Origin: a virus | Lineage: Duplodnaviria; Heunggongvirae; Uroviricota; Caudoviricetes | Reading direction: 5' to 3' (one strand) | Virus record (IMG/VR): IMGVR_UViG_2654587996_000001 | Location: 1 to 36,538 of that record | DNA: 36,538 bases | Shown here: positions 1-15,961 of the stretch, one piece after another | Layout: each line of letters opens with the position of its first letter | Numbering within the stretch: the stretch's first letter is position 1 | Translations under genes and position numbers: made by a program | Notes under the pieces: generated by a model | What the model saw: only the letters and a program-made list of their open reading frames with translations | The model's database searches: none | Told to the model about the DNA's origin: nothing

Positions 1-735
1 TCAACTCTCTTTCAAACCGGTTTTAACTGTCTGTGGTTTTGGGTAAGGCTGGACTTTGAATAGCTTTGTGTTGAGGCGTTTTCTGGCTCTCTTGTTCAGA
101 AACCGGATGTAACGAAACTGGCGGAATTTATGAACACTGGCTCTGTCGATATTAGCCCTCAGATGTTCACCTCGCTGTCCTCCTCGTTTGATGGTATTCC
201 TGCAAATCTCGTGATACCACTCGCCATCAAGTTCATAGAATGTTGATTCATGGCTGCCAACATAATCAAAATTGCTTGCCTGATACACGACACCAAGACA
301 GCCACAACGCTCATCTGCAAACGACTGAACCCACTGCACCTGCGGATAAAGTTGCCTGATGAGTTTGAGTGCGTAACTGATTGCCCTTGATTCGGAGTTT
401 CTCGGCATACAGTCATGCATCCATAGCCGGTTAAGCTCCATGTATTCACGGTTCTGCGTACCCGTTACGATGCGCGCTCCGCTGTTTGGATTAAGGGCAT
501 AACCCCATTGCATTACGCCAACCAGCTCCCGTTCTGAAAATATCCCCAGATGAAGGTAGGAGTTATTTACGAAACGGTGGCTGTAATGTTTATTGACGAT
601 GACCAGTCGGGCCAGCCAACAACTTATTGTCTCAACACGCAATTCACGGGAGCCATAACCAACGATATTGTCGTTATAGCGAATAAGTTCAGGCGTGCTG
701 ATGATACGGGATGTAACTTGCTTTTTGTTCCCCAC
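1..735 (-). CDS. mom: Mom-like DNA modification protein; proposed GTG start at 735 (244 aa); the frame stays open upstream to 1086
   Basis: Lies immediately downstream of and overlapping a Com-like zinc finger gene, as in Mu. GTG at 735-733 is preceded by AAGGAAA about 9 nt upstream. No ATG exists in this frame between 895 and 513. Stop TGA at 1-3. Assignment is by position, not by recognised Mom sequence. Confidence 0.5.
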
Positions 736-889
736 GACAGGATTTCCTTGTGTATGTGGGGTGCTCTGTGGCGCTCTGTGATGTGATTTGATTGAGGGTT
801 TTACAGCGCGGGCATTTGACTTCCAGATAGCTGAAACTGGCCCGTGCCAGTAGCTTATTGCAGTGTCGGCACCGTATGTTTCGATACAT
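689..889 (-). CDS. com: Com-like zinc-finger translational activator of mom
   Basis: Translation [14 protein letters not shown]...VKCPRCK has the C-x2-C...C-x2-C arrangement and CPRCK motif recalled from phage Mu Com; about 66 aa; 3' end overlaps the proposed mom start. Confidence 0.7.
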
Positions 890-938
890 GGCCGCATAAC
901 CTCCTGCTTTGTTGTTGTTGTTGATGTTTGCTTCATCA

Positions 939-963
939 AATCGATCGACAAAAACGATCGATT
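939..963. promoter_or_regulatory. Perfect 9-bp inverted repeat AATCGATCG-N7-CGATCGATT carrying two GATC sites, upstream of com-mom; a third GATC at 1026-1029
   Basis: Read directly from the sequence. Sits 50-140 bp upstream of the com start on the minus strand. In Mu the mom promoter is controlled by Dam methylation of clustered upstream GATC sites. Confidence 0.5.
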
Positions 964-1103
964 CGATTTGTTTAATTGATACAACAAATAACACGAAATG
1001 TCATTAGCGAAAATTTTATGAGGTTGATCACTAATTTTAAAAGGTGCAGTAACGCATAAGTGATGAATGATTGTACATTTGAACACCGCAAAGCAAACAA
1101 CTC

Positions 1104-1129
1104 AACTAATTAATAAAAATCAATTAGTT
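1104..1129. promoter_or_regulatory. AT-rich palindrome AACTAATT-N10-AATTAGTT in the divergent region between com and the plus-strand ORF at 1153
   Basis: Perfect 8-bp inverted repeat read from the sequence, about 25 bp upstream of the GAGAGG ribosome-binding site of ORF 1153-1455; operator-like. Confidence 0.3.
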
Positions 1130-1152
1130 ATCTGCTGTCGTGAGAGGCTGTG

Positions 1153-1455
1153 ATGAACAATCATGTAACGACGATAAATCAAAACACAATTGAAAACGCG
1201 GAAATTTATAATGATTATTTTTCCGATTATTCAGATGTCTGCAAATACAGTTCGAGTGCGGGAAAGTTCATATGCTTCAATTTTTTTATTAAATCTTATG
1301 TCTTTCCTCCTAAGGAAGAGGATGGATGTACTCCACCTCCTGAAATCAGGTTGCACCGTGTTGCCTCTGTCTCAATGATGGAGCAACAGGCTGATGAGTT
1401 ATATAGCATTCTGGGAGCGCTTCTGCACAAGGATGAGGCTAAGGTGGGTCAATGA
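1153..1455 (+). CDS. Hypothetical protein (100 aa), AT-rich
   Basis: ATG at 1153 preceded by GAGAGG at 5-nt spacing; low GC compared with the phage backbone; no recognisable motif. Confidence 0.4.
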   Translation: MNNHVTTINQNTIENAEIYNDYFSDYSDVCKYSSSAGKFICFNFFIKSYVFPPKEEDGCTPPPEIRLHRVASVSMMEQQADELYSILGALLHKDEAKVGQ

Positions 1456-1582
1456 TGCCCTGTTATGTTTCAGTTATACTCGGGGATTAAGCTGGATTGC
1501 CTGCTGTTATATTCCCGGAATACTCAATGCTATTCAGCGCTTTACATATCAGAAAAATAGCAAGGATGTTTTCATTAGAATT

Positions 1583-1608
1583 AAACCGGCAGGAGAAACT
1601 GCCGGTTT
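1583..1608. terminator. Intrinsic terminator-like hairpin between convergent small genes
   Basis: Perfect 10-bp stem AAACCGGCAG / CTGCCGGTTT with 6-nt loop; T-rich flank; begins 7 nt after the stop of the minus-strand ORF 1615-1869. Confidence 0.55.
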
Positions 1609-1614
1609 GTATTG

Positions 1615-1869
1615 TTACATCATAGTACTGTCAGTTCCGGACTGAGCCGGTTCTGGTTGTTCTGGCTGTGCGTCGGTTTTCGGCTCATTATCAGCATCAC
1701 TGGCCGCAGCAGCTGGCCCAAGAAGTTTTGCCAGCACCTCATCAACGTAAGTGTCGATTTGTGCCTCAAAATCCTTGCGGACCTGCGCTTTCAGTAATTT
1801 ATTTACTTCACCTGAATACAGCGCCTGTTTGACCAGGTCTTCAGTGACAGTGCCTTTAATCTCTGGCAT
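1615..1869 (-). CDS. Hypothetical acidic protein (84 aa)
   Basis: Strong ribosome-binding site AAGGAGG 6 nt upstream of the ATG; AT-rich; acidic Pro/Glu-rich C-terminus. Confidence 0.55.
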   Translation of the reverse strand: MPEIKGTVTEDLVKQALYSGEVNKLLKAQVRKDFEAQIDTYVDEVLAKLLGPAAAASDADNEPKTDAQPEQPEPAQSGTDSTMM

Positions 1870-1904
1870 GTATATCCTCCTTATGCGGGAATACAGCCCT
1901 GCAA

Positions 1905-2087
1905 TCAGGGCTGGGTCGGGTCTTTTGGGAGCGGGGTTGCCGTTGTTGTTTTACTGAGTTTTTCCGCTGCTGCGTCATCAATTTTACGGCGGACATAATT
2001 TCGGATAGCTTTGTAGCCACCACTCACCAGATATAACGCGCAGACCACCGAGCAGAAATATAATAAAATAAGCTGTATAAATGTCAT
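1905..2087 (-). CDS. Small membrane protein (60 aa), one N-terminal transmembrane helix then a basic tail
   Basis: Hydrophobic N-terminus IQLILLYFCSVVCALYLV; GGAG 7 nt upstream of the ATG; 35-nt spacing to the next ORF suggests co-transcription. Confidence 0.5.
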   Translation of the reverse strand: MTFIQLILLYFCSVVCALYLVSGGYKAIRNYVRRKIDDAAAEKLSKTTTATPLPKDPTQP

Positions 2088-2223
2088 TATTCATCTCCAT
2101 TATTAATATGGTGTTGACATAGTTAATACCTGTTGGTTAAAAAGGCGTCCTGCATTTTTTGCTTTGGACATAACGACTTTTGCCGCCGGTTTCCTTGTTT
2201 TCCCTTTCCAGGCGGCATTTTTT

Positions 2224-4302
2224 TTATCCTGCTGACGGGGTATTCACTTCCACCACAATGCTGTCAATCAGCACCGGATATGTCGCAGCGCTGGTGATAT
2301 CAGTCACCCGTAATTTGTCTGCCGTAAACGTGCCAACCGGAGACTGAGACAGCATGAATGGTGTCCCGTCCTTACCATCAATGACCGGCGTCACCTCAAT
2401 ACTGTTGTTACCGGCAAAACGGAAGCCCAGCGTATGCCATTCGTTATTAAATGCACCGAATGACCCCAGTTTCGTGTTTTGCGCCGTATTGCCCTTGTGG
2501 TACATCACGTTAAGGTCTGTGGCATCGCTCTGAACGTAAAACGATGCCAGCAGGTTATGACCGGCATTACCTTCCAGAGTAACCCCTTGCGGCAGGGCAG
2601 AAACCGGCCAGTACAGCGCCATCGCGTACTGATTAGCCGTAAGCGTACCATCAACCTTAAACCGGCAACTGACAAGGCCACCTTTACCCAGCAGGTCCGC
2701 ACCATTACCGGCATCATGCTCAAGGTACCAGGAGGATTTGCCTGTTTCCTTGGTCAGTTTCATGGCCTTACCACTACCTGCTCCGGCATCATCCACGATT
2801 TCAGCCTTGCCACCTCCCGCGCTCCAGCCCTGTGGTGACAGCTGACCTTCTGATTCAGATGTCCGGTAAGCAAACAGCGTGCTCATCGTCGTGGTGTCAG
2901 CCGGTGGAGTGGACGGTGTATCCGGCGATGGTGTTGATGGGGAGTCAGGTGATGGCTTCTCATCCGGTGGTGTCACGGTCTGCCCGCCCATCAGTTCAGC
3001 CGTGCGCCCTGCATGGAGCAGAATAGCGGAGGCCAGACGGTCTGAAATAATGCCCCTGCGTGCCCATGAGCTGAAATGGCTGTCACGCTGTGTCGAGACA
3101 AAACTGCCCTGAGTACGGGATGCTGCACCATAATACCCGACAGCCACAATATCCGGGTCTTCCGCCGGAGCATTTGTTGGCGTGTTTGCGCCGTTTTCAT
3201 CTGTCAGGAACGGTACAAAGAAAATATTCTGTGCTTCCTTGCCTTTGTAGCCACCGTATACTGTCTCATATTTATCGGTGCCAGCGTTTTTCCAGTAATA
3301 CGTGGTATCACCGCAAATCCACGGCACCGTGGTGGCATTTCCGCTCACACACTGTGCAGCAAGTGAGGACAGGTCAGTCCTGAACTGCTGAACCATGGCC
3401 GTGAATAAACCGTTATGCTGCTGACTGCCTGAAGCAAGGTCTGCCTCGCCCTGCATCCATACCACCGCCAGCAGCCTGTTTTTCGGGTTCTTCGCCAGCG
3501 CCGCTTTTGTCCGGCTGACCATGTCCTGATACAGGGGTTTACCGGCACCCCAGCGTGCAGCGTCAGCGGATGCGCCACTGGCCTCACTGAATGTACCGTC
3601 GGCACCGGTGGTGAATGCAGAACCACCACGACAGCAGGGCACCAGAAGTATCCCTGCATTCTGCGGGATATACGACAGCAGCTTTTTGGCAATATGCAGC
3701 CCCTGACTGACACAGCCATACTGCCCCTTATTCAGGTCCGCTTTCGGATGATTAACACCGCTCATATCCTGTACATCATGCAGACAATGGTCAGCCGGAA
3801 TCACATCATTGTATGCACAGGCGTCTCCACCCGGCGTCACTGTACTGCGGCGTGCCAGCTGTTTAATGCGCGGGTCCGGGCGGTCATAAGAGTCCGGTAA
3901 CGGAAGCCCCTCACCGTAGGCCATGCCGTTGGACTGTCCGGCAAGCACAACCACGTAGTAATACTCCGGCTCTCTGTTGCCGCCACTCACACTGCCGGAA
4001 GACCCGGCGTTATCCGGTGCATTCCAGTCCGATGGGGTGAGCGTTCCGGCCACATCCGACGTAATGGGAATGACGCCGGTCACGCCAGAGCTGGTAATTT
4101 CTGCACTGGGGGTACCGGACACAGGCATTACCCATAATGGCTCTTTCGTGCTGAAGCGGATCACACAATCTGCAAAGGTGATCCCGCCTTTATTACCCGA
4201 AGGCCGGAAAGGGCTTTCAATAAATGCCACAGTGCCACCGGCAACCTTGACTGAAAACTCTCCGGGCATGGCGGAGAGCATTTTCCACTGGGAGTCTGAC
4301 AT
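2224..4302 (-). CDS. SGNH/SASA-family esterase domain protein with Pro/Ser/Thr linker and C-terminal beta-rich domain; candidate virion-associated receptor-modifying enzyme
   Basis: Motif VVVLAGQSNGMAYG (GQSN nucleophile block of sialate O-acetylesterase-like SGNH hydrolases); linker PPDEKPSPDSPSTPSPDTPSTPPADTTT; no N-terminal signal peptide; located just past the tail fiber genes. Confidence 0.7.
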   Translation of the reverse strand: MSDSQWKMLSAMPGEFSVKVAGGTVAFIESPFRPSGNKGGITFADCVIRFSTKEPLWVMPVSGTPSAEITSSGVTGVIPITSDVAGTLTPSDWNAPDNAGSSGSVSGGNREPEYYYVVVLAGQSNGMAYGEGLPLPDSYDRPDPRIKQLARRSTVTPGGDACAYNDVIPADHCLHDVQDMSGVNHPKADLNKGQYGCVSQGLHIAKKLLSYIPQNAGILLVPCCRGGSAFTTGADGTFSEASGASADAARWGAGKPLYQDMVSRTKAALAKNPKNRLLAVVWMQGEADLASGSQQHNGLFTAMVQQFRTDLSSLAAQCVSGNATTVPWICGDTTYYWKNAGTDKYETVYGGYKGKEAQNIFFVPFLTDENGANTPTNAPAEDPDIVAVGYYGAASRTQGSFVSTQRDSHFSSWARRGIISDRLASAILLHAGRTAELMGGQTVTPPDEKPSPDSPSTPSPDTPSTPPADTTTMSTLFAYRTSESEGQLSPQGWSAGGGKAEIVDDAGAGSGKAMKLTKETGKSSWYLEHDAGNGADLLGKGGLVSCRFKVDGTLTANQYAMALYWPVSALPQGVTLEGNAGHNLLASFYVQSDATDLNVMYHKGNTAQNTKLGSFGAFNNEWHTLGFRFAGNNSIEVTPVIDGKDGTPFMLSQSPVGTFTADKLRVTDITSAATYPVLIDSIVVEVNTPSAG

Positions 4303-4555
4303 CGTCTTTTCTGCCTGTTTCTGAATTAAACAGAGTCAGAATAACAACCGCTGATAAATATGTGTTTTGCGGAAATTCAAAAAAAGCGTCACGGTACTTT
4401 TTATGACGGAGCCGGTGAGGCAGGAACATAACGACAAAGGATGGACAGGCCAATATGATAACCGCATATTACCGGCTTATAATTTAATTAACGATTCATG
4501 ACGCGGCGGTCAGCACCTGAAAATATGCGTTATTTCAGACAACCCTTGCCTGTAT

Positions 4556-5128
4556 ATGGCGATAGTATTATTCCTGTTTTTATCATTGATTCACATGGTG
4601 ATGTTTATGCAACTGATTAATGTTAAACGATATTACCCGGAACACAAACCCTATGGTAATGATGTACAGTATTTTCAGAGTGAAGATGGTAAGGATTTCT
4701 ACGAGTCCCTGCCATTATTCACAAAAAAATATAAACTTTGCATAACACCAGACAGCGGCGTTATCTGCTCAATATCACAGGACGCCTCGGCACTGTATCC
4801 TGCGGGTTTTTCCGTGGTTGAGGCCGATGAACTCCCTGAAGGCACGGATATTTCAGGAAACTGGACGTTTGATAATGGCGTTATCTCCCGGCTTCCGGTT
4901 AACTACACCAAAAAAGCGGAAGCACAGCGCCAGTCATATCTTAATCAGGCATATGAAAAAATTAATGACTGGAGAACTGAGCTACAACTGGGCACGATCA
5001 GTGATGAAGACAGAGCAGCACTTACCCAATGGATGGCATACATCAGTCAGGTGAAGAAAATGGAACTACCCGCCATTAAAACAGAAGCTGAATTTAACGC
5101 CATTAAATGGCCTGAGCTGCCACAGTAA
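4556..5128 (+). CDS. Tail fiber assembly (chaperone) protein; real start probably internal, around 4595-4607
   Basis: C-terminal region DWRTELQLGTISDEDRAALTQWMAYISQVKKM resembles conserved Tfa/U-family C-termini. On the opposite strand from all other structural genes. Confidence 0.65.
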   Translation: MAIVLFLFLSLIHMVMFMQLINVKRYYPEHKPYGNDVQYFQSEDGKDFYESLPLFTKKYKLCITPDSGVICSISQDASALYPAGFSVVEADELPEGTDISGNWTFDNGVISRLPVNYTKKAEAQRQSYLNQAYEKINDWRTELQLGTISDEDRAALTQWMAYISQVKKMELPAIKTEAEFNAIKWPELPQ

Positions 5129-5131
5129 TAA

Positions 5132-5151
5132 AGAAGGCCGGAAGGCCTTCT
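5132..5151. terminator. Bidirectional terminator hairpin between convergent tail fiber and Tfa genes
   Basis: Perfect 8-bp stem AGAAGGCC / GGCCTTCT with GGAA loop, placed between the Tfa stop (5126-5128) and the tail fiber stop (5160-5162); U-rich flanks on both strands. Confidence 0.6.
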
Positions 5152-5159
5152 GAATATCA

Positions 5160-6041
5160 TTATATACTTGCAGCCGTCACCCATGCTCCATTTAACAGAT
5201 ACTGCAACGGCCGGTAATACACGCCGCCGACGTTATCTGCCGTATTCTTACCGACATCCTGTACTTTAATTCCGGTAAGAACATTGCCGCCCCCCAGATT
5301 CAGATCCCAGCTTTCCCATGTTCCGGGCATATGTGCGGTCACAGACCCCAGCCTGATACCCGTCACTGTTCCTGATGAGATAGTGATATCCTGCGTTCCG
5401 TCAAAGGCGACACCATTGATTTTGTGGGCGTTGGCCAGCCTGTTTGCTGCAACAGCCGTGCCGTTCGATGGCAGGGCATTCGCGGCCTTGTTTACCGTAT
5501 CCCGTAAACCGACGTTATCGATAAAAGCCCCTTTATCCGGAATGTCTGCGCCGTTCTGCTCCCTGCGCAGGTAATGGTTATCACCTTCGCTCCTGCTGTA
5601 AACATCCAGATTATTACGGGCGGTCCCCTTATTCTCCAGATCGGCCAGATTCTGATCCTTTGCCAGTGCATTAACGTCACCGGGACCAAGACTGTTTTTT
5701 GTGGCAAGCGTCCCCAGACCAAGATAACCACGGGCCAGACGCTGGGCCTCCGCACCGGCATCAGCAATTTCTTTCAGGTTATTTTTCCGGGAAAAGGCAT
5801 TCGCAGCGATAATGGCTTTAATGGACAGCGTAAGCTGGTTTAACTGCGCCTTATCCGGCTGGATATTGGCTTCAGCCAGAATATTCAGCAGTTCGGCCTG
5901 GAGAATATTCAGCCAGTCCTGACCGATCCAGCTGATACCTTTCTGTCCGTCACCTTCGGTAAACCAGGTGGTGGTATTACTCTGCGCCGGTGCCAGCGCA
6001 GGCATATTCGCCACGCCGGAATTATTATCAACATGAAACAT
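5160..6041 (-). CDS. Tail fiber protein (S-like), 293 aa
   Basis: Position after the baseplate genes; N-terminal [13 protein letters not shown] segment typical of tail fiber N-termini; Gly/Asn-rich C-terminal part. Confidence 0.65.
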
Positions 6042-6601: not shown

Positions 6602-7674
6602 GTGATTTCTCCCACCGTCAGCAGCTCACTGTCGCCCGCCTGAACCGACGTCAGCGGACTGCGCACTTCAAAATCCTCCAGATTTTTCACCCCCGCCACG
6701 GCACGCCAGAAAGACGACGGCAGAACCAGACCGCCGGGCCGGGATTCGTTGTATAACAGGTCGGTCAGCGCCTGTTTTACGGCCGCCTGATTCTCCGGTG
6801 TTTTCGGGATGATCCTGATGCTGAAGGGCACCGGCTTATTGGTCAGTTTAAACACGGTCACCGTCGGCCCCAGCGGCTGCCCGACTGGCTGGCCGGTCGC
6901 CGGATCATCATGACTGCGGATATAATCCGCCACCCGCTGAACATCACCGTCACCGGGGAAAATATCCGGGTTATTATCCTGAACGAACGTTACCCCCACG
7001 CTGCCCGCCTGCGGCCATTCCGGGCGGCACCATGCCCGCGTCACGCCAGGCACTTCACGCGCCCAGCGTTCGAAATCATACTGCGTGCCGCCGGACGGCG
7101 GATTCTGCACCCGGAAAACCAGACGGGAAAGCAGCTCCGGTACGGTTTCCACGTCTGCACCACCGGTGATCCCCGTGCCGGTCACCGTGGCCGTCTGGTT
7201 GATCCCCGCCTGCGGTGTGATAAAGGTCAGTTTTGTCCCTGCCGGGGCATTTCCCGCACGACCGGCACTTTCGGCCTCCACACTGACATTCAGCGTACCG
7301 GCCTTGCCGGTCAGGGAGGCGGTGATGCGGTAAACCACGCCGTCACTGCGCTGGAGAAGCACACCTTCCGTGATCCCCGCATCCGTCGTCAGCATCAGTT
7401 GTACCGGCCCGTCCCCCCGTGAAGCGGGTTTACGCATGACGCCCCAGAACGCGCAGTGCTTCAGCAGTTCGGCTTCATCAGCTTCTGTCGGGATGATCTG
7501 ACGCGCAATCCAGGCCAGATGCTCATGCTCCTGTGCAGACAACCCCGCCTGGGCATAAGCAATGGCATTCAGGGTGGTTTCACTCACGCCCGGTTGCGAA
7601 CCGGGCAGGCGCTGGCTGATATCCTGCTGTGTCTGCGTGATTAACTGTGCCAGCGGTAAAGGCTGATAAGGCAT
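6592..7674 (-). CDS. Baseplate J-like protein (Mu gp47-like)
   Basis: 360 aa, syntenic position; overlapping start and stop with neighbours. Confidence 0.6.
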   Translation of the reverse strand: MPYQPLPLAQLITQTQQDISQRLPGSQPGVSETTLNAIAYAQAGLSAQEHEHLAWIARQIIPTEADEAELLKHCAFWGVMRKPASRGDGPVQLMLTTDAGITEGVLLQRSDGVVYRITASLTGKAGTLNVSVEAESAGRAGNAPAGTKLTFITPQAGINQTATVTGTGITGGADVETVPELLSRLVFRVQNPPSGGTQYDFERWAREVPGVTRAWCRPEWPQAGSVGVTFVQDNNPDIFPGDGDVQRVADYIRSHDDPATGQPVGQPLGPTVTVFKLTNKPVPFSIRIIPKTPENQAAVKQALTDLLYNESRPGGLVLPSSFWRAVAGVKNLEDFEVRSPLTSVQAGDSELLTVGEITWL

Positions 7675-8111
7675 TACTCCCCCTTAAGATCAGCGTAAAA
7701 AATCATGGGTCTCACCGAACCATCGGGCAGGGTTATATGCACCGAAAGCGCCAGTCGCGCGTGTCCCACGCGTTCTGCATAACACGCCACGGATGACGCC
7801 ACGCCATCCTGACTGAGCCAGCCCAGCGCCTCATCTGCGTAAGCACGGGCACGGCGTACCACGGAGGCCAGCGTTTTTTCCCGGCTGAGAAGCCACAGAC
7901 GGGAGCCAATGGGGCGCGGGCGAAAACTGTCTCCCCACCATCCCCGGCGGTCACGCGTACCGTCAGGGATTTCATCCGATGCCAGTGCCCGGCGGTCAGT
8001 AAACAGGGATATCAGCACAGCCGTCAGCAGACTGTCATCCGTCAGCAGGTCAGCACCGTTGAGTTGCAGCGAACCGCATCCCTGATCCCACACAATTGCA
8101 ATATCAGCCAT
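7674..8111 (-). CDS. Baseplate wedge protein (Mu gp46 / gpW-gp25-like); start taken at internal ATG 8111
   Basis: ATG at 8111 gives the typical 8-nt overlap with the upstream gene stop (8104-8106); about 146 aa; the longer ORF to 8255 would overlap the upstream gene extensively. Confidence 0.5.
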   Translation of the reverse strand: MADIAIVWDQGCGSLQLNGADLLTDDSLLTAVLISLFTDRRALASDEIPDGTRDRRGWWGDSFRPRPIGSRLWLLSREKTLASVVRRARAYADEALGWLSQDGVASSVACYAERVGHARLALSVHITLPDGSVRPMIFYADLKGE

Positions 8112-8718
8112 TCTCCGGCACTCCTGTCTTACTGCCTTCGCCGTTATCATGATGCACATGACCGGAATAGGTGATCCCGGCAATAACCGCGTCTGACATG
8201 GTGAACAGTCCCTGAGATTTCCCCGTACCATCAAGCGCGAAATTCCCCTTAACATGCAGGTTCTTATTCACCGTCACATTGCCCGTAAAGGTGGCTTCCG
8301 GCGTATCCACCTGAACACTTTCATCGGCATAAATTTCCAGCGTCTTACAGGTCACGATGATCCGGCCGTCTTTTGTCAGACGTATGCGGTGCCCCTCATG
8401 GTGATACACGCCGGTGTCTCCGGCGGTGAGTCCGGTCGGGCGGCTGCGCCGGTCTTCCACCACAAGTACCACGGCCTGATCCCGCTGCCCGCCCAGACAG
8501 GCAAAAAAGGTTTCTGCGCCCGGCAGGGGCACACTGATCTGGCCGTACTGCTGGGGGCGCTCCACATCATCAAACGTTTCGCCGTCCATGCCGGTGAACT
8601 GCACATTCTGCATTTTCAGTTCGTCGTGTGTGCCGGTCAGAACACCCCGGCCAAACAGCAGACGAATACCGCGTGTCACCGGGGCAATCAGGCGGCTGAA
8701 CACTTCATCATTCATCAA
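8104..8718 (-). CDS. Baseplate assembly/spike protein V-like (Mu gp45-like)
   Basis: 204 aa; position between the hub-like protein and gp46-like protein. Confidence 0.6.
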   Translation of the reverse strand: MMNDEVFSRLIAPVTRGIRLLFGRGVLTGTHDELKMQNVQFTGMDGETFDDVERPQQYGQISVPLPGAETFFACLGGQRDQAVVLVVEDRRSRPTGLTAGDTGVYHHEGHRIRLTKDGRIIVTCKTLEIYADESVQVDTPEATFTGNVTVNKNLHVKGNFALDGTGKSQGLFTMSDAVIAGITYSGHVHHDNGEGSKTGVPENG

Positions 8719-9835
8719 AGCTGATCCCCTGTTTTTTCATCTGCTGGCGAATAAAGGCATCAACATCATCACCGGAACCACCGCCACGGCCCTTGCTGTC
8801 CGGCTCTGCCGGAACGATAAAGCCGTCACGCGGTGCCAGTACCAGCCGGGAGACTTCCCCGTTCTGCTCATCCAGTAAAAACTCCACCTGACAGACCAGC
8901 AGTTCGGTCTGCGCAGTACCAAAGCGCAGGGCCGAAACACCGGTCAGCAGATTGACATCCCATAACCGGCCATCGTCCCGGAACCAGCCGCGCACGGTGG
9001 CGGAAAACCGTTCTGAACGGGCAACCGCCCGGCGCATCTCACGCAGGGCACGCTGCCGTGCGCCGGTGGTGTCAATCTGATGATCGGCAAGGATGATTTT
9101 CGGCCGGTAACGACCGATCTGCTCATCACTGATGGTGGCCACAGGGGCTGCCAGCCGGGCGGCCGACTCACTGTCTCCCTGTTTACCCCCGCCGCGTCCG
9201 TGCCCCCGGACACGGTATTCGCTGTATCGTCCGCGCCAGTCCGTGTTGTAGTCTGCATCAAGCAGGTTTTCCCCCAGCACCAGTCTGTCCGTCTGCTGGT
9301 TTCCCGCCTGAGTGAACACCAGATCGCCGTCAGCATTGCTGGTCACCAGCACCCCGCGATGCCGGGCTGCACGGGTCAGCGCATCTGCCACGGTTTCTGA
9401 ATTTTCCAGTGTAAAAGAGACAAAGGGACGGGCCGCACTGTCATCATTCACCTGCCAGCGCACGTTTATCCCGAAGGGCGCACATAAATCTGCGGCAATC
9501 TGCGCCAGCGTCCGGTTTCGCCACTGGCTGCCGGGGTGAACGGCAGCACAGTCCACCAGGTCACCGGTTTTATCCCGTCCGCTGATGGTGATCTGATGAC
9601 GGGCTGCACTGATACGCTGACTGACCTGATCCAGCCAGCCACTGACCACGGTCTGCCCGTTGATCCTGAGCGTCAGGGACTGACCGCTCCGCAGGGCGGA
9701 CGGGATACGCTCGCCGGGCAGCATCAGCCCCAGCTCAAACGACCCGGCCAGATGTTCCAGGGAGCGGCGGACGCTGACCGTCAGCCACCCGGAAAAAATA
9801 CTGCCGCCGATATACAGTTCAATCCTGCTGCTCAC
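8708..9835 (-). CDS. Tail/baseplate hub protein (Mu gp44, gpD-like)
   Basis: 375 aa, syntenic position after the DNA circulation protein. Confidence 0.5.
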   Translation of the reverse strand: MSSRIELYIGGSIFSGWLTVSVRRSLEHLAGSFELGLMLPGERIPSALRSGQSLTLRINGQTVVSGWLDQVSQRISAARHQITISGRDKTGDLVDCAAVHPGSQWRNRTLAQIAADLCAPFGINVRWQVNDDSAARPFVSFTLENSETVADALTRAARHRGVLVTSNADGDLVFTQAGNQQTDRLVLGENLLDADYNTDWRGRYSEYRVRGHGRGGGKQGDSESAARLAAPVATISDEQIGRYRPKIILADHQIDTTGARQRALREMRRAVARSERFSATVRGWFRDDGRLWDVNLLTGVSALRFGTAQTELLVCQVEFLLDEQNGEVSRLVLAPRDGFIVPAEPDSKGRGGGSGDDVDAFIRQQMKKQGISFDE

Positions 9836-11177
9836 TGATCACCTCCACACTGCGGCCCCCCGGAACAAAAACCGGATCGGGGATGTTGTTCCGGCGGACA
9901 AAATACTGCCAGCGGCGGCTGTTGCCGGTGGCCCGGTACAGCGTGACCAGTGCCGGTTCGGTGGTGCGCACCATGACCTGAGAGGCACCGGGAAGATGTA
10001 CGCTCCGTGTGGTCAAATCTTCTGTCAGCGCAAGTCTGGCATCCCGTAATGCAAGGGCGGTGCCGGTATAGCCCTGCGCGGACAGATCCAGCACCTGTTG
10101 TTCCATGGCATCACTCAAATCCCGGTTGATACGCTGCACATCAGCAGAACTTTCCAGCCAGGCGGGTCTGCCCGCCCGGTCATTATCCTGAACGTGCGTC
10201 GTATCCTGCCGGATGACCTGATCCAGCAGTTTTCCGACCGTCTGCGCCTGCGACACCAGGGTTGCGCCCTGCATGACGGTACGCAGCAGGCGGATATTTT
10301 TCTGTGCCGCAGGCGTCAGACCAATCAGACGCTGCGGATCATCCTGTTCGCTGAGGGTGTAACGCAGGGAAGAAAGTGTGCGGTACAGCTGCGGCATGGC
10401 CTGCTCTGTCATGCTGTTACGGTTTGTGTCCAGGCTGCCGGATGGTGTCCCGGGCTGGCCGGTCAGTGACAGGGACGGATCGCCGGGCAGCCCCGCCAGC
10501 ACGGCAAACATGCCTGCCAGCGATTCAGCCATGCGACGGGGCGCATTAATCAGGGCCGTGGCATTGCCTTTCAGGGCCACAAAGCTGGCCGTAAAGGCAC
10601 TGATATCCTGCACAATCCCCATCCCCGAAACGGCATTTTCCAGCGCATCAATTTTGTCGCTGATGGTGTCGGTCATGGCCTGCACATCATGCAGGCCGTC
10701 TGAAATCACCGTCCAGCCGTCTGAAAGTGTGTTAAACAGCTGATTCATTGCTGAACCGCTTTTCTGCCCCAGCGCAGCTGCCGTATCTTCTGCCACCGAG
10801 GGTGCGGTATCGTCACTGGCGGGGATCACGTTGATCGTGAACTCAACCGTTCCCTGTTCGCTGGCGTTATAACGGCTTTCAAAGCTGTTTATCAGCACGT
10901 TTAACGTGCCGTAATCCGGGTGCATCAGTTCACCGGCACCGGGTGCCCGCAGCGCATCACGCAGGCGGCTTCGCTGCGTCTGAAGATCGTCTCCGGTCAC
11001 CAGAACCGTGAATGTGAACTCCGGGAGTTTTGGTCCTAAATCATCCGCACCGCCGCTTTCACGCAGCGGATATTCACGGCGCACAATGTTACGTCCGCCC
11101 CGTTCCCGCTGCTCCTGATAAACCAGGAACGGCACGCCACGAAAGGAGCCACGCCCCGGCGTGTCAGTAGAGGCCAT
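9819..11177 (-). CDS. DNA circulation protein (Mu gp43/P-like)
   Basis: 452 aa immediately downstream of the tape measure gene; overlapping start. Confidence 0.5.
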   Translation of the reverse strand: MASTDTPGRGSFRGVPFLVYQEQRERGGRNIVRREYPLRESGGADDLGPKLPEFTFTVLVTGDDLQTQRSRLRDALRAPGAGELMHPDYGTLNVLINSFESRYNASEQGTVEFTINVIPASDDTAPSVAEDTAAALGQKSGSAMNQLFNTLSDGWTVISDGLHDVQAMTDTISDKIDALENAVSGMGIVQDISAFTASFVALKGNATALINAPRRMAESLAGMFAVLAGLPGDPSLSLTGQPGTPSGSLDTNRNSMTEQAMPQLYRTLSSLRYTLSEQDDPQRLIGLTPAAQKNIRLLRTVMQGATLVSQAQTVGKLLDQVIRQDTTHVQDNDRAGRPAWLESSADVQRINRDLSDAMEQQVLDLSAQGYTGTALALRDARLALTEDLTTRSVHLPGASQVMVRTTEPALVTLYRATGNSRRWQYFVRRNNIPDPVFVPGGRSVEVISEQQD

Positions 11178-13221
11178 AGTTTCCTCCGTTCCAGACGTTC
11201 ACATCAAGGCCATGCTGTGCGGTATCATCCACATCAATACTGCGTGCCCGCCAGCCTTCAGGGGCAACCAGCTCCACCCGTGCGGCGGTTTTCGCGGTGG
11301 CCTGTCCGCCGTTTTCATCACTGCCGCCACGCAGTTTCTGCCAGGCCTGCGTCAGCCAGCCCCCCAGATAATCACCAAGATAGCTGCCCACCGTGGAACC
11401 AATGGCAACCCCGACCGGACCGGCAGCCGCCCCCAGTGCGCCACCGGCGATACTACCGGCAAGGGAACCCACGGCACCGGCTTTATCGGCTGCACTGGCG
11501 CTGCTGTCCAGCAGTACAGGGGCCGCCATGGCACCGGCCCACAGGGCACCACCGCCCAGCCGACCGGCACCACGGAACAGCCCGGAAAAACGTCCCAGCC
11601 CCATGCGGTTTCCGGCAGCCGTCAGCAGCCCACCGGCACGGCTCATCATGCGACCGAAGAAGCCCTGTTTACCGGCACTTTCCGCCAGCTGCTCACCGGC
11701 GGTCACGACGGTCTGAACACCCCGTCCGCGTCCGGGGCCGCGCTTTTTACGGCCGCGCACGGTTTTGCCGTCACCGCTGACCATCACATCCCCGCCACCT
11801 GATGCCAGACCACCCGCAGGCCAGTTAGTGACCAGTACGGGCTGAACGGCAGCAGGATTTATCCCGGTAAGAAAGTTCATAAAACGCTGGCCGCGTCCGG
11901 GCTGCGTTCCCGGCACAGTGGTCTGTGGTTTGCGGAAAGGTGAGGTCAGCACGGCGGCCGTGGACAATCCGTACCCTAACAATGCAGCTCCCGGTCGCAG
12001 TGCCCCAATCCCTATGGCGCGGACCGCCTTCAGCGCACGGGTGGCGAGATACATATACAGGAGATATTTCGCCGCTGTCTGTGCGCCCTGACCAATGCGA
12101 TCCAGTGCATCGCCATAACCGGCGTCGCGCAGTGCCTGAAGGGTTTCCCTGACTTTCTGAATGGCCCGGTAAAAGCCGGTCGCAGCGTCTCTGGCATACT
12201 CAAATCCCCGATTAAGGGCCGAGGCCGTCTGCGTGGCCAGCTTATCCTGTAAGCCGCTTTTCTGTGCCGCATCGGCATAATCCAGGAAGCCCTTCAGGCT
12301 CTTTTTCAGGCTGTCAAACGGCCCCTTTGCCATCACATCACGGGCAAACTGATCCCAGACATCTCCCATCATGGAGGTCATCCCTGTCCAGGAGTTCATG
12401 GCATTTTTCTGGGCACCTTTTGCCTGTTCGGCCATCACCTGAAATAACAGACGAATGCTGTCCGGTCCCAGTTTTCCTTTCTCGCCTTTCTCACGGATGA
12501 TCTTCTGGTTTACACCCAGCTTATCGGCCAGTAACTGGTAAACGTTGATCCCGTATCCGGTCAGGATATTGGCGTCCGCTGCCTGAATACTCTGACGGGC
12601 AAACATCTGTTTGAGTTGCAGGGACGCACCCTGTGCATCTGACAGTGACCAGCCGTGATAGCCACCCTGATCCTGAAGCATGGTAATAAAGCGGCGGGCT
12701 TCCCTGTCACTCATACCGAACCCGCGACTGGAGGCGTATTCCTGCATAACCCCCGCCAGCCCCCAGGTGGTGTCTTTGGCGTTCTGTACCGCCCAGGCTT
12801 TCACTGCTTCCGTTTTTGCCGTATCGCCATGATTAATGGCATTGAGACGCAGAATATAGTTCTCCATCTCTGCGGCCGGGCGGATAAAGGCTTTATTAAA
12901 ACCGTAGACCGCAGCCCCACCTGCCAGCATCCCGTAAAGGTTGCTGAGGCGTCCCAGCGTGCCGGTAATACTGCCCTGAAGCCGGTCAAAATCCGACGTC
13001 ACCGTGCGGATACTGCCACGGACACCGGCAAGCGTTCGCTGCATACGGGAGCCGACAAGCTCTGTCTCCTGACCGGCACGGCGGGCTGCATTTCCAATAC
13101 CACCCAGGCCTGTCCTGCCGGAACGGGAGAATGCCCCCAGCTCCTGTGACCACTGGCGGGATTTGGCGGAAATATTGCCGAGTAAATCGACAATCAGGGA
13201 GGCTTTCAGGTTTTTTGCCAT
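11164..13221 (-). CDS. Tail tape measure protein
   Basis: 685 aa, coiled-coil-like N-terminal half and Gly/Ala-rich C-terminal segments; follows the tail chaperone pair. Confidence 0.75.
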   Translation of the reverse strand: MAKNLKASLIVDLLGNISAKSRQWSQELGAFSRSGRTGLGGIGNAARRAGQETELVGSRMQRTLAGVRGSIRTVTSDFDRLQGSITGTLGRLSNLYGMLAGGAAVYGFNKAFIRPAAEMENYILRLNAINHGDTAKTEAVKAWAVQNAKDTTWGLAGVMQEYASSRGFGMSDREARRFITMLQDQGGYHGWSLSDAQGASLQLKQMFARQSIQAADANILTGYGINVYQLLADKLGVNQKIIREKGEKGKLGPDSIRLLFQVMAEQAKGAQKNAMNSWTGMTSMMGDVWDQFARDVMAKGPFDSLKKSLKGFLDYADAAQKSGLQDKLATQTASALNRGFEYARDAATGFYRAIQKVRETLQALRDAGYGDALDRIGQGAQTAAKYLLYMYLATRALKAVRAIGIGALRPGAALLGYGLSTAAVLTSPFRKPQTTVPGTQPGRGQRFMNFLTGINPAAVQPVLVTNWPAGGLASGGGDVMVSGDGKTVRGRKKRGPGRGRGVQTVVTAGEQLAESAGKQGFFGRMMSRAGGLLTAAGNRMGLGRFSGLFRGAGRLGGGALWAGAMAAPVLLDSSASAADKAGAVGSLAGSIAGGALGAAAGPVGVAIGSTVGSYLGDYLGGWLTQAWQKLRGGSDENGGQATAKTAARVELVAPEGWRARSIDVDDTAQHGLDVNVWNGGNYGLY

Positions 13222-13224
13222 GGG

Positions 13225-13437
13225 TTACTGCTTCGCTCTGAGAATTTTTTCGGTCTGTCGGCAGTGCCGGTAAAGCTGCGATAAGGGGAGGTTAAGCGCC
13301 CATTCCGGGCCGCTTTTTGTCACCATCCCCAGCACAATGGCTGCTTCTTCAATCTGATCCCGGCACTGCATCTGGTCGCCCCCGTTCAGCGACCAGCTTT
13401 CCGGCCATCGCGGAATCAAGCAGGCCTATCGCCGCCA
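13225..13437 (-). CDS. Candidate frameshift extension of the tail assembly chaperone
   Basis: Open frame overlapping the 3' end of ORF 13349-13825 and ending 3 nt before the tape measure ATG; it is +1 relative to the upstream frame. Confidence 0.4.
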
Positions 13438-13825
13438 TCAGACGGGAGAGATCGCGCTCGCTGAGCTGTCCGATCTGACGCGGAGACAATGGTCCCTCAA
13501 TCTGGCCGACAGCGGCAATCTGACGGCGCAGCAGCGCAATGCCGCGCAGTGCCGGTGAGGCCACCAGAACCGGACCGTTTCGGGTTTCCATAAGACGCTC
13601 GGCCTCGGTTTCCGCATCAATGCTGTCTTTCGCTGTCAGTTCGCGGAAGGTGACGCGGTATTCACGGGATTCCCCGAACGGCAGGCCATCAAGCAGATCC
13701 ACATAGCCGTTCGCCAGCTGTTCAGCCAGCCCGGCGGTGCGGGGATCGCCGTCCTCAAGCGCATCACGGATAGCCTCAATCACGGCCTCGTCAGAGACCG
13801 CCGTTTTTTTCTTGCGTGTGCTCAT
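13349..13825 (-). CDS. Tail assembly chaperone (Mu gp41 position)
   Basis: 158 aa acidic protein between the tail tube and tape measure genes. Confidence 0.5.
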   Translation of the reverse strand: MSTRKKKTAVSDEAVIEAIRDALEDGDPRTAGLAEQLANGYVDLLDGLPFGESREYRVTFRELTAKDSIDAETEAERLMETRNGPVLVASPALRGIALLRRQIAAVGQIEGPLSPRQIGQLSERDLSRLMAAIGLLDSAMAGKLVAERGRPDAVPGSD

Positions 13826-13839
13826 TGCATTTTTCCTGA

Positions 13840-14205: not shown

Positions 14206-14213
14206 GCCTTACC

Positions 14214-15958: not shown

Positions 15959-15961
15959 CTG

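What the first reader, a model, noticed from the sequence alone, without database searches (positions are those of the whole stretch)
1090..2223. AT-rich three-gene island between the esterase gene and com-mom
Three small ORFs with good ribosome-binding sites (plus-strand 1153-1455; minus-strand 1905-2087 membrane peptide and 1615-1869 acidic protein with AAGGAGG) sit where Mu carries gin. The region is AT-rich relative to the backbone and the convergent genes are separated by a perfect 10-bp hairpin. The right end of Mu-like phages is an accessory locus (mom is an anti-restriction function), so these could be further anti-defense or host-interaction genes; that is speculation.
Basis: partly seen in the sequence, partly recalled or inferred. 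Interest (0 to 1): 0.6.

Follow-up and report, generated by a model that had tools for sequence, protein, structure and literature searches.

The report
Sialate-esterase cassette tail, not an island
The supposed three-gene island is mostly the tail of a mobile sialic-acid-esterase cassette (two small proteins of known but uncharacterised families plus an overlooked small regulatory RNA gene) shared between Mu-like and Shiga-toxin-type prophages of E. coli, next to a variable slot holding one orphan gene; it is largely already catalogued, though the small proteins' function is still unknown.

Summary
The three ORFs, their ribosome-binding sites, the low G+C (42.7% against 54.6%) and the perfect 10-bp hairpin are all there. 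The grouping is wrong.

- **The two minus-strand genes:** they are DUF1378 (1905-2087) and DUF826 (1615-1869). In 78 of 78 informative loci they follow a NanS-p-type sialate O-acetylesterase gene in the fixed order esterase, DUF1378, DUF826. Twenty-five loci are Mu-like (then com-mom) and 55 are lambdoid (then holin and endolysin). Both genes are under purifying selection (dN/dS 0.09-0.20).
- **A missed RNA gene:** the esterase-DUF1378 spacer (2088-2223) carries an antisense small-RNA gene on the plus strand. It has a TTGACA-18-TAAAAA promoter and a hairpin with a U-run overlapping the esterase stop codon. It is 32/35 identical to the target of the EcOnc33 northern probe, a ~71-nt Hfq-bound sRNA of E. 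coli O157 Sakai.
- **The plus-strand ORF (1153-1455):** it is a lineage-restricted orphan in a hypervariable slot. Its one distant relative sits just after the repressor gene in lambdoid prophages.
- **gin:** it is deleted in this window. In relatives the cassette lies between gin and com.

No defence-family match was found for any of the three (anti-defence could not be tested), and the biochemical role of DUF1378 and DUF826 is unresolved. This is a new member of a known kind, of modest interest.

The parts
1104..1129 (.). Imperfect palindrome (AACTAATTAAT n4 ATCAATTAGTT) about 25 nt upstream of the orphan ORF. It could be an operator; this is untested.
   Evidence: inverted repeat I3, 11 nt arms, 91% complementary. 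It is partly conserved in L001.
1153..1455 (+). Orphan ORF1, 100 aa, acidic, with no known family. It fills a hypervariable slot between com and the DUF826 terminator and reads opposite to the phage late genes.
   Evidence: Searches found no family. The word-index search returned 14 close clusters and the exhaustive search 4 representatives; all named ones are E. coli or Shigella. dN/dS is 0.36 against L001. It is present in 14 of 30 Mu-like loci; the others carry unrelated fillings. A distant homologue, P0137 (33% identity), lies just after cI in lambdoid prophages. The AlphaFold model is poor (pLDDT 55).
1583..1608 (.). Perfect 10-bp hairpin with a 6-nt loop. It probably acts as a bidirectional intrinsic terminator, ending the cassette transcript (minus strand) and the ORF1 transcript (plus strand).
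   Evidence: A hairpin is kept at this position in L001, L002 and L003, with changed stem bases in L003.
1615..1869 (-). DUF826 gene: 84 aa, AAGGAGG ribosome-binding site, conserved helical N-terminal 51 residues, variable acidic Pro/Glu-rich tail, conserved C-terminal Met-Met.
   Evidence: PF05696, E 5.4e-16, 58.9 bits against a cut-off of 25. phrog_311. dN/dS 0.085-0.145 among Mu-like copies. Alignment A3. AlphaFold gives a helix at 20-50 with pLDDT above 90 and a disordered tail. No PDB fold match.
1894..1913 (-). 8-bp hairpin (CAGCCCTG n4 CAGGGCTG) enclosing the DUF1378 stop codon, between DUF1378 and DUF826. Its role is unknown.
   Evidence: I5, 100% complementary. It is identical in L001 and L002, and pairing is kept with changed bases in L003. 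It is absent from the lambdoid copies.
1905..2087 (-). DUF1378 gene: 60 aa with a single N-terminal transmembrane segment (residues about 3-24), followed by a basic helix-prone stretch and a Pro-rich tail. The predicted topology is N-out, C-in (inferred from the positive-inside rule).
   Evidence: PF07125, E 2.8e-33, 114 bits against a cut-off of 25. phrog_494. dN/dS 0.14-0.20. Hydropathy and charge. Alignment A1.
2114..2143 (+). Promoter of the antisense small RNA: -35 TTGACA (2114-2119), 18-nt spacer, -10 TAAAAA (2138-2143).
   Evidence: The same architecture (TTGACn, 16-18 nt, usually TAAAAA) is present in all 32 distinct spacers and upstream of PasC. The rule reproduces the published 5' end of PasC (PMC8550237 Table S6).
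2149..2225 (+). Antisense small-RNA gene of the EcOnc33 type, predicted at about 76 nt. The terminator stem is 2181-2187 / 2211-2217 and the U-run 2218-2225 overlaps the esterase stop codon (2224-2226). The RNA is fully complementary to the esterase-DUF1378 intercistronic mRNA.
   Evidence: Window 2147-2181 is 32/35 identical to the target of the EcOnc33 northern probe (PMC4104026 supplement). The whole spacer matches Sakai Sp6 at 125 positions of the 145-nt window spacer (156 alignment columns); a separate alignment gives 81.6%. The hairpin plus T-run lies on this strand in all 32 distinct spacers plus PasC and PasA, with 20 different stems. Consensus helix. Fold energy -16.8 kcal/mol, z -1.8. 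No Rfam match.
2224..4302 (-). NanS-p-type sialate O-acetylesterase gene (692 aa), the first gene of the cassette. The N-terminal ~110 residues are a Mu-type domain in place of the capsid-binding DUF1737.
   Evidence: SASA and DUF6645 domains. PDB 3pt5 NanS, E 2e-118, and 6yp6 NanS-p C-terminal domain, E 2e-98. phrog_143. Domain comparison.

Best explanation
Positions 1583-2226, together with the esterase gene at 2224-4302, form one mobile accessory cassette. Its parts run in a fixed order on the minus strand:
- the sialate O-acetylesterase gene (NanS-p type);
- a ~140-nt spacer holding a self-contained, oppositely oriented small-RNA gene of the EcOnc33 type;
- DUF1378, a single-pass inner-membrane protein;
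- DUF826, a small acidic helical protein;
- a terminator.

The same cassette sits between stx/Q and the lysis genes of lambdoid (Stx-type) prophages. In Mu-like prophages it sits between gin and com-mom. Pieces of it keep recombining between the two phage types.

**Shown:** family membership, fixed gene order, purifying selection, the promoter and terminator architecture of the RNA gene, and its near-identity to an RNA detected by Hfq crosslinking and northern blot in E. coli O157.

**Inferred:**
1. The three proteins are made from one transcript that starts upstream of the esterase gene. No conserved sense-strand promoter precedes DUF1378.
2. The small RNA is made constitutively in the lysogen. 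Because it is perfectly complementary to the intercistronic mRNA, it damps or cleaves read-through into DUF1378-DUF826. It probably also acts in trans through Hfq.
3. DUF1378 inserts N-out, C-in. Its basic cytoplasmic stretch pairs with acidic DUF826. The pair works late in lytic growth, at the inner membrane, in a role tied to the signal-less esterase (holding, maturation or release). I give this last step only about 0.3.

Positions 1090-1582 are a separate hypervariable slot. Here it holds an orphan gene transcribed against the late genes, which is the most likely place for a lysogen-expressed accessory function.
For: - **Families:** Pfam DUF1378 and DUF826 above cut-off; the esterase has SASA and DUF6645 domains and matches PDB NanS and NanS-p.
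- **Order:** all 80 IMG/VR loci found through DUF1378 have DUF826 next. All 78 with upstream sequence have the esterase first. 25 are followed by com-mom and 55 by holin and endolysin.
- **Named examples:** phage 933W, BP-4795, Sakai Sp6 and Sakai Mu-like Sp18 show the same order.
- **Selection:** dN/dS is 0.085-0.145 for DUF826, 0.14-0.20 for DUF1378 and 0.10-0.17 for the esterase.
- **RNA gene:** conserved antisense TTGAC-16/18-TAAAAA promoter and hairpin plus T-run in 32 distinct spacers. The EcOnc33 probe maps to this spacer in Sp6, and the window is 32/35 identical over the probed segment. EcOnc33 was ~71 nt by northern and Hfq-bound (PMC4104026). PasC occupies the same position and orientation, and its published 5' end fits the promoter rule.
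- **Mosaicism:** the window's esterase 3' end and spacer are 82% identical to lambdoid Sp6. Its DUF1378 and DUF826 are closer to the Mu-like copies. The Sp18 spacer is only 34% identical.
- **Variable slot:** four unrelated fillings between the DUF826 terminator and com.
Against: - No expression data exist for this organism. The sRNA evidence comes from E. coli O157 and EPEC.
- The -10 element lacks the usual final T.
- Stem covariation is modest, because the CCGCC/GGCGG core is conserved.
- Esterase genes occur without DUF1378 and DUF826 in E2348/69 prophages PP2 and PP5, so the pair is not needed by every NanS-p.
- The perfect linkage could reflect common descent of young genes confined to Escherichia and Shigella, rather than functional coupling.
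- No interaction between DUF1378, DUF826 and the esterase was tested.
- Neither small protein is reported among phi24B virion proteins or among phi24B lysogen-culture proteins.
Confidence: 0.72

Rival explanations
1. One reading: the three small ORFs form one autonomous accessory island, acquired in place of gin, whose products are anti-restriction or anti-defence factors like mom.
For: The region is AT-rich and lies at the accessory right end beside com-mom. The slot next to com is hypervariable. A distant ORF1 homologue sits at the rex position of lambdoid prophages.
Against: Two of the three genes are tied to the esterase gene, not to ORF1, in 78 of 78 loci. They also occur in lambdoid late operons where there is no com-mom. 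ORF1 is present in only 14 of 30 Mu-like loci. gin coexists with the cassette in relatives. There is no match to defence or other functional families.
Confidence: 0.06
2. DUF1378 is a small membrane-damaging peptide, acting as a type I toxin-like factor or a lysis-timing factor. The antisense small RNA is its cis-repressor and DUF826 modulates it. On this view the module controls membrane integrity or lysis rather than serving the esterase.
For: DUF1378 is a 60-aa protein with one hydrophobic helix and a basic tail. An sRNA gene is transcribed from the opposite strand, 62-138 nt upstream of its start codon. That geometry recalls tisB/istR-1 or zorO/orzO (from my own knowledge). The sRNA is Hfq-bound and made in uninduced cultures (PMC4104026). 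In lambdoid phages the pair lies directly before the holin gene. Both phage types that carry the pair encode endolysins with N-terminal membrane-anchor-like segments.
Against: No promoter for DUF1378 was found, and the RNA does not overlap its ribosome-binding site. At 60 aa with a conserved soluble tail, and with an operon partner, it is atypical for type I toxins. In Mu-like phages the pair is far from the lysis genes. There is no match to any holin or toxin family. E2348/69 prophages with an RrrD-type endolysin lack the pair.
Confidence: 0.12
3. DUF1378 and DUF826 are prophage-expressed envelope proteins that give the lysogen superinfection exclusion or another surface-related benefit. They merely hitch-hike with the esterase gene.
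For: Small inner-membrane proteins at the ends of late operons often act as exclusion factors (HK97 gp15, T4 Imm; from my own knowledge). The families are confined to Escherichia and Shigella phages. They are retained under purifying selection in two unrelated phage backbones.
Against: No conserved sense-strand promoter would give expression in the lysogen. The antisense RNA would counteract read-through. No PADLOC match. They were not among the phi24B proteins detected in lysogen cultures.
Confidence: 0.08

Closest known systems
NanS-p region of Stx-converting lambdoid phages (933W L0105-'L0106'-S; Sakai Sp6 ECs_1527-1528-1529-1530)
   Same: The order is the same: esterase, ~140-nt spacer, DUF1378, DUF826. 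The esterase catalytic and C-terminal domains are 64-76% identical, and the spacer is 82% identical to Sp6. A published survey notes that DUF826 and DUF1378 coding regions lie between nanS-p and S (PMC10462455).
   Different: Here the cassette is in a Mu-like transposable phage. It is followed by a terminator, a variable slot and com-mom rather than by holin and endolysin. The esterase lacks the capsid-binding DUF1737 domain and has a different ~110-residue N-terminal domain. DUF1378 and DUF826 are only 53% and 41% identical to the 933W copies.
Mu-like prophage Sp18 of E. coli O157:H7 Sakai (ECs_4992 gin to ECs_4998 mom)
   Same: The layout is the same: gin, esterase, DUF1378, DUF826, an opposite-strand gene, com, mom. 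The Mu-type esterase N-domain is shared.
   Different: The window has lost gin. It carries a different spacer (sRNA) allele, only 34% identical, and a different gene in the variable slot. The esterase is 67% identical.
EcOnc33 (and probably EcOnc37), Hfq-bound prophage sRNAs of E. coli O157 Sakai (Tree et al. 2014, PMC4104026)
   Same: The window sequence is 32/35 identical over the segment probed by northern. It lies in the same spacer, on the same antisense strand, with the same promoter and terminator layout. EcOnc37 lies in Mu-like Sp18, at the matching spacer once the coordinate shift between assembly versions is allowed for.
   Different: Expression, size and Hfq binding have not been measured for this copy. 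There are three substitutions in the probed segment, and the terminator loop is 5 nt shorter than in Sp6. No target or function has been published for EcOnc33 in the papers I could read.
PasC / PasA sRNAs of EPEC E2348/69 (PMC8550237; bioRxiv 10.64898/2026.05.13.724894)
   Same: Same position (3' end abutting the esterase stop codon), same antisense orientation, similar size (78-85 nt), the same TTGACA-18 promoter type, and a U-rich stretch before a GC-rich terminator.
   Different: Sequence homology cannot be shown: a profile of the 32 spacers gives only E 0.11 at the PasA-long unit and nothing at PasC. In E2348/69 there are no DUF1378 or DUF826 genes downstream.
Phage Mu right end (S-U-U'-S'-gin-com-mom)
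   Same: Com and Mom families are present, along with Mu-type baseplate and tail genes, Mor, GemA and an endolysin with a membrane-anchor-like N-terminus.
   Different: As far as I know, Mu has no esterase, DUF1378, DUF826 or sRNA cassette between gin and com. Here gin itself is deleted.

Membership tests
Pfam DUF1378 (PF07125) | Profile match above the curated gathering score over the full ~59-residue model | tested here: met
   114.3 bits against a cut-off of 25, E 2.8e-33, residues 1-58 of 59. Also phrog_494, E 2.3e-33.
Pfam DUF826 (PF05696) | Profile match above the curated gathering score | tested here: met
   58.9 bits against a cut-off of 25, E 5.4e-16, residues 1-55. Also phrog_311, E 4.5e-28 over the full length.
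NanS-p esterase cassette of Stx-type phages | SGNH/SASA catalytic domain plus the lectin-like C-terminal domain of NanS-p | tested here: met
   PF03629 and PF20350. PDB 3pt5, E 2e-118, and 6yp6, E 2e-98.
NanS-p esterase cassette of Stx-type phages | N-terminal DUF1737 domain (binds capsid in phi24B) | tested here: not met
   No PF08410 match. Residues 1-~110 align only with the Mu-like Sp18 esterase, not with 933W, Sp6 or the E2348/69 esterases.
NanS-p esterase cassette of Stx-type phages | Gene order esterase, DUF1378, DUF826 on one strand | tested here: met
   Window order 4302>2224, 2087>1905, 1869>1615. The order is the same in 78 of 78 informative loci.
NanS-p esterase cassette of Stx-type phages | Location in the Q-dependent late operon, directly upstream of holin and endolysin | tested here: not met
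   The cassette is followed by a terminator, ORF1 and com-mom. The lysis genes are about 25 kb away.
EcOnc33-type prophage sRNA | Sequence similarity to the RNA detected by the EcOnc33 probe | tested here: met
   32/35 identical at window 2147-2181 (+). The spacer matches Sp6 at 125 positions of the 145-nt window spacer.
EcOnc33-type prophage sRNA | Own promoter and Rho-independent terminator on the strand antisense to the esterase operon | tested here: met
   TTGACA-18-TAAAAA at 2114-2143; stem 2181-2217 with 8 U.
EcOnc33-type prophage sRNA | Expression as a ~70-80-nt RNA and binding to Hfq | not testable with these tools
   Shown only for the Sakai Sp6 copy, by CRAC and northern (PMC4104026 supplement).
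PasA/PasC sRNA family | Detectable sequence homology to PasA or PasC | tested here: not met
   BLAST gives no match in the spacer. The spacer profile against the E2348/69 loci gives E 0.11 at best.
PasA/PasC sRNA family | Position and orientation: antisense, with the 3' end at the esterase stop codon | tested here: met
   PasC runs 1290909>1290832 and the esterase ends at 1290830. In the window the U-run 2218-2225 meets the stop codon at 2224-2226.
Type I toxin-antitoxin system | Small hydrophobic toxin peptide | tested here: inconclusive
   DUF1378 has one transmembrane helix but is 60 aa with a conserved 35-residue soluble tail. Toxicity is not testable here.
Type I toxin-antitoxin system | Antisense RNA overlapping the toxin mRNA, and a dedicated toxin promoter | tested here: inconclusive
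   The RNA is complementary to a region 62-138 nt upstream of the start codon, which matters only if the mRNA extends that far. No conserved sense-strand promoter was found.
Known anti-phage defence systems (PADLOC) | Profile match of any of the three small proteins | tested here: not met
   No match for ORF1 or DUF1378. DUF826 matched only PbeC at E 0.04, which is noise.
Mu Gin invertase | A serine recombinase gene between the tail-fibre genes and com | tested here: not met
   No such ORF exists between 4302 and 5160. Homology to gin-bearing relatives breaks at 4456/4604.

The most novel reading that the evidence does not exclude
The esterase, antisense sRNA, DUF1378 and DUF826 form one functional unit. 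The Hfq-bound sRNA gates expression of a membrane-anchored two-protein device that controls when and how the signal-less sialate esterase (or the cell contents) is released or matured. That could be a type I toxin-like or releasin-like switch carried as a portable module by two unrelated phage types. Separately, the slot next to com may be an unrecognised hotspot for lysogen-expressed exclusion or defence genes in Mu-like prophages, with ORF1 and its rex-position relatives as a new family.
Probability: 0.12. Interest if true: 0.6.

Novelty: new member of a known kind. Interest (0 to 1): 0.33.

Why it matters
NanS-p esterases let pathogenic E. coli and their phages deal with O-acetylated sialic acids of gut mucus, and prophage sRNAs rewire host regulation. 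This analysis adds three points.

- The esterase travels with a fixed set of partners: an Hfq-type antisense sRNA gene and two conserved small proteins.
- The set is shared and recombined between Mu-like and Stx-type prophages.
- The set gives a concrete, testable unit for two protein families that have stayed 'domains of unknown function' for two decades, and for an sRNA (EcOnc33) with no assigned role.

The analysis also corrects annotation. 933W L0106 is a misannotated ORF that overlaps DUF1378 in another frame and contains DUF826. The sRNA gene is unannotated in all the records I inspected.

The locus itself is not surprising. The same layout has been in the Sakai Sp18 sequence since that genome was published.

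Tried and rejected
- **Rfam:** searching 1-5200 at E <= 1 gave nothing, so the sRNA is not in Rfam 15.
- **GTDB species genomes:** a scan with the DUF1378 alignment gave 268 pattern matches, none confirmed. The family appears confined to Escherichia and Shigella.
- **DUF826 structure:** the AlphaFold model is one long helix plus a disordered tail, and Foldseek against the PDB gave no match. A PDB sequence search gave only noise.
- **ORF1 structure:** the model has pLDDT 55, too poor for a fold search.
- **Functional families:** PADLOC, NCBIfam and PHROG function labels gave nothing useful.
- **Endolysin idea:** I considered that the pair goes with endolysins that carry an N-terminal membrane anchor. 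I dropped it because E2348/69 prophages with an RrrD-type endolysin lack the pair. That RrrD is of the membrane-anchored type is my own recollection and was not checked.
- **Esr41:** it is EcOnc14 in SpLE1, so it is not this RNA.
- **AsxR (EcOnc02):** it lies between stx2B and nanS-p, so it is not this spacer.
- **Literature:** searches by locus tags (ECs1208, ECs1528, L0106) returned only unrelated papers. The phi24B lysogen-proteome and virion papers do not report either small protein.
- **Variable slot:** the alternative genes found in the slot have no Pfam family.
- **Sense-strand promoter for DUF1378:** only a weak TTAACT-16-AATAAT match was found. It is not conserved in other spacer types.
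Full report
**Setting.** The window is a complete Mu-like prophage read in reverse.
- Mom (PF25680) and Com (PF10122) lie at the left end on the minus strand.
- Baseplate and tail genes follow.
- Mor, GemA and an endolysin lie further in, and long ORFs run on to the right end.
- A protein 99% identical to the plus-strand ORF is encoded in E. coli genomes. There, the same prophage right end abuts four different host genes. The element is therefore an actively transposing E. coli phage.

**The observation.**
- The three ORFs and their Shine-Dalgarno sequences are at the stated coordinates.
- The perfect 10-bp hairpin lies at 1583-1592 / 1599-1608 and is scored terminator-like.
- G+C of 1090-2223 is 42.7% against 54.6% for the window, in the lowest 3% of same-sized windows.
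- gin is indeed missing. Homology to a gin-bearing E. coli relative stops at 4456 and resumes at 4604, leaving about 68 nt of gin.
- In relatives, however, gin is present and the block lies between gin and com. The block did not replace gin.

**What the two minus-strand genes are.**
- ORF 1905-2087 is DUF1378 (114 bits, cut-off 25). ORF 1615-1869 is DUF826 (59 bits, cut-off 25).
- Both families are common in Stx-converting and related lambdoid phages: 309 and 146 phage records respectively by tblastn.
- In 933W and BP-4795 they lie between the nanS-p esterase gene and the holin gene S. The 148-aa 'L0106' of 933W is a misannotation: it overlaps DUF1378 in another frame and contains DUF826.
- I fetched 80 viral contigs through DUF1378 and mapped the neighbours. 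DUF826 follows in all 80. An esterase gene precedes in all 78 that have upstream sequence. 25 contigs continue with com-mom (Mu-like) and 55 with holin and endolysin (lambdoid).
- The window's esterase is a true NanS-p relative (PDB 3pt5, E 2e-118; 6yp6, E 2e-98). Its first ~110 residues, though, are a Mu-type domain shared only with the Sakai Sp18 esterase. They replace DUF1737, which binds the capsid in phi24B (bioRxiv 10.64898/2026.04.10.717836).
- dN/dS is 0.085-0.145 for DUF826, 0.14-0.20 for DUF1378 and 0.10-0.17 for the esterase. All three are maintained as proteins in the Mu-like setting.
- All named homologues are from E. coli or Shigella, and a scan of one genome per prokaryotic species found none.

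**The overlooked RNA gene.**
- I aligned the esterase-DUF1378 spacer from all loci. Just after the esterase stop codon there is a GC-rich hairpin that is preceded, not followed, by an A-run on the coding strand. It is therefore an intrinsic terminator for the opposite strand.
- On that opposite strand every one of 32 distinct spacers has TTGACn, 16-18 nt, then usually TAAAAA. This sits 73-104 nt upstream of the T-run.
- The stems differ (20 versions in 34 sequences) but stay complementary. RNAalifold finds a six-pair core in which three pairs show double changes. The covariation is modest because the CCGCC/GGCGG core is conserved.
- In the window the gene reads: -35 at 2114-2119, -10 at 2138-2143, start near 2149, stem 2181-2187 / 2211-2217, U-run 2218-2225 overlapping the esterase stop codon at 2224-2226.
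- The published northern probe for EcOnc33 maps to exactly this spacer in prophage Sp6, on the strand that detects an antisense RNA. EcOnc33 is an Hfq-crosslinked sRNA of E. coli O157 Sakai, about 71 nt long (PMC4104026 supplement).
- The window is 32/35 identical over the probed segment and matches the Sp6 spacer at 125 positions of its own 145 nt.
- EcOnc37, listed in the Mu-like prophage Sp18, falls inside the predicted RNA of the Sp18 spacer if coordinates are shifted by 130-160 nt. The same shift is needed for EcOnc33. This rests on an assumed offset between assembly versions.
- PasC of EPEC E2348/69 has the same position, orientation and size. My promoter rule reproduces its published 5' end (PMC8550237 Table S6). 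Sequence homology to PasC or PasA cannot be shown, so I call them positional counterparts, not family members.
- Rfam has no match.

**Mosaicism.**
- Against lambdoid Sp6, the window's esterase 3' end and spacer are 82% identical. DUF1378 and DUF826 are only 69% and 51% identical.
- Against Mu-like Sp18 the pattern reverses: spacer 34%, DUF1378 78%, DUF826 75%.
- One contig (L071) joins gin and a Mu-type esterase to a lambdoid DUF1378-DUF826-S-R.
- The cassette is therefore exchanged piecewise between the two phage types, and the sRNA alleles are swapped independently of the flanking genes.

**The plus-strand ORF.**
- It has no family in Pfam, NCBIfam, PHROGs or PADLOC.
- It has 14 close clusters, all named ones from E. 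coli or Shigella. An exhaustive search of 1.8 billion representatives found four hits.
- dN/dS is 0.36 from one comparison. The structure model is unusable.
- The interval between the DUF826 terminator and com has at least four unrelated AT-rich fillings. Each has small ORFs on the strand opposite to the late genes, and ORF1 occupies 14 of 30 loci. The alternatives also lack families.
- The one distant homologue (33% identity, E 1e-4 library-wide) is the first of three small overlapping genes placed right after the cI-like repressor gene in lambdoid prophages, between the repressor gene and N. That is the rexAB position in phage lambda (from my own knowledge).
- This is the best hint that ORF1 is a lysogen-expressed accessory gene. 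It is only a hint.

**How it probably works.**
- The anatomy is shown: the cassette order, the terminator, the RNA gene and selection on the proteins.
- Co-transcription of the three proteins is inferred. I found no conserved sense-strand promoter before DUF1378, only a weak match that is not conserved.
- Cis action of the sRNA on the intercistronic mRNA is also inferred. So is its trans action through Hfq, by analogy with the Sakai and EPEC data.
- DUF1378 has an uncharged N-terminus, a 22-residue hydrophobic helix and a +4 tail. DUF826 has a confidently predicted long amphipathic helix, a -6 disordered tail and a conserved C-terminal Met-Met. A membrane-anchored basic-acidic pair is a reasonable guess.
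- DUF1378 and DUF826 were never seen without the esterase gene, in two unrelated backbones. I therefore favour a role tied to the esterase, at about 0.3. The esterase lacks a signal peptide, and in phi24B it is processed only after release.
- Against this, E2348/69 prophages carry the esterase and a Pas sRNA without the pair. The linkage may also simply reflect the shared descent of young genes.
- Rival readings cannot be excluded: a toxin-like or lysis-timing module, or an exclusion factor.

**Comparison and verdict.**
- The closest known things are the nanS-p to S interval of Stx phages, the right end of Sakai prophage Sp18, and the sRNAs EcOnc33/37 and PasC. All are already in public records or papers.
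- New here are the recognition of a four-part cassette shared by Mu-like and lambdoid phages, the assignment of the window's spacer to the EcOnc33 group, the backbone-specific N-domain of the esterase, and the variable slot next to com.
- That makes the finding a new member of a known kind. It has modest interest, and one open question worth an experiment: what DUF1378 and DUF826 do.

Noticed in passing
window 4303-4604: gin is deleted. Homology to gin-bearing relatives breaks at 4456/4604 and only about 68 nt of the gin 3' end remain. Loci without gin all have the tail-fibre-assembly gene in one orientation, while gin+ loci show both. The invertible host-range switch therefore looks frozen here.
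   Followed up: partly
window 3970-4302 (esterase residues 1-~110): The esterase N-terminal domain is specific to Mu-like phages (shared with Sakai Sp18 ECs_4993). It replaces the capsid-binding DUF1737 of lambdoid NanS-p and may be an adaptor to a different virion. The catalytic part is closer to lambdoid Sp6 (76%) than to Sp18 (67% over the whole protein).
   Followed up: partly
L071 (IMGVR_UViG_2617270951_000022) 96-5136: A hybrid arrangement: gin plus a Mu-type esterase (90% identical to the window's) followed by lambdoid-type DUF1378, DUF826, holin S and endolysin R. It is either a recombinant between a Mu-like and a lambdoid prophage, formed through the shared cassette, or an assembly artefact.
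   Followed up: no
L003 4775-5827 (Mu-like phage inserted in Stx1 phage LC727895): After com, in place of mom, there is a 350-aa ORF with C5-cytosine-methyltransferase motifs (PCQ, ENV). It is a different DNA-modification gene under the com leader.
   Followed up: no
window 932-975: A GATC-containing inverted repeat (ATCAAATCGATCG / CGATCGATTCGAT) lies upstream of com. This is the expected Dam/OxyR control region of a mom operon.
   Followed up: no
window 1104-1129: An 11-nt imperfect palindrome lies just upstream of the orphan ORF. It could be an operator, but no sigma-70-like promoter was found for this ORF.
   Followed up: no
L093-L096 (loci 6855-16303): The same gin-less prophage right end, including a 99%-identical ORF1, lies next to four different chromosomal genes in four assemblies. 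This is evidence that this phage variant transposes actively.
   Followed up: partly
L089-L092 6001-6951: The distant ORF1 homologue P0137 heads a three-gene cluster (97, 95 and 123 aa, with overlapping starts) placed directly after the cI-like repressor gene of lambdoid prophages, before N. That is the rex position in lambda (from my own knowledge). None of the three has a known function.
   Followed up: partly
window 890-1582 and the matching interval in 30 Mu-like loci: The interval between the DUF826 terminator and com has at least four unrelated AT-rich fillings (460-851 bp). Each has small ORFs on the strand opposite to the late genes. It may be an accessory-gene hotspot of Mu-like prophages.
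   Followed up: partly
L004 5047-5493 (phage 933W L0106): The annotated 148-aa L0106 overlaps DUF1378 in another frame and reads through DUF826. The real genes are 5001-5180 and about 5221-5493. phrog_8301 probably derives from such calls.
   Followed up: partly
L086 2467-2913 (E2348/69 prophage PP2): Two tandem sRNA units follow the esterase gene: a PasC-like unit abutting the stop codon, then PasA. This explains the published 236-nt 'minor' PasA species that ends at the esterase stop.
   Followed up: no
window 1894-1913: A perfect 8-bp hairpin has the DUF1378 stop codon in its loop. It is kept in the Mu-like copies and absent from the lambdoid ones. Its role is unknown; it could be an mRNA processing or stability element.
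   Followed up: no
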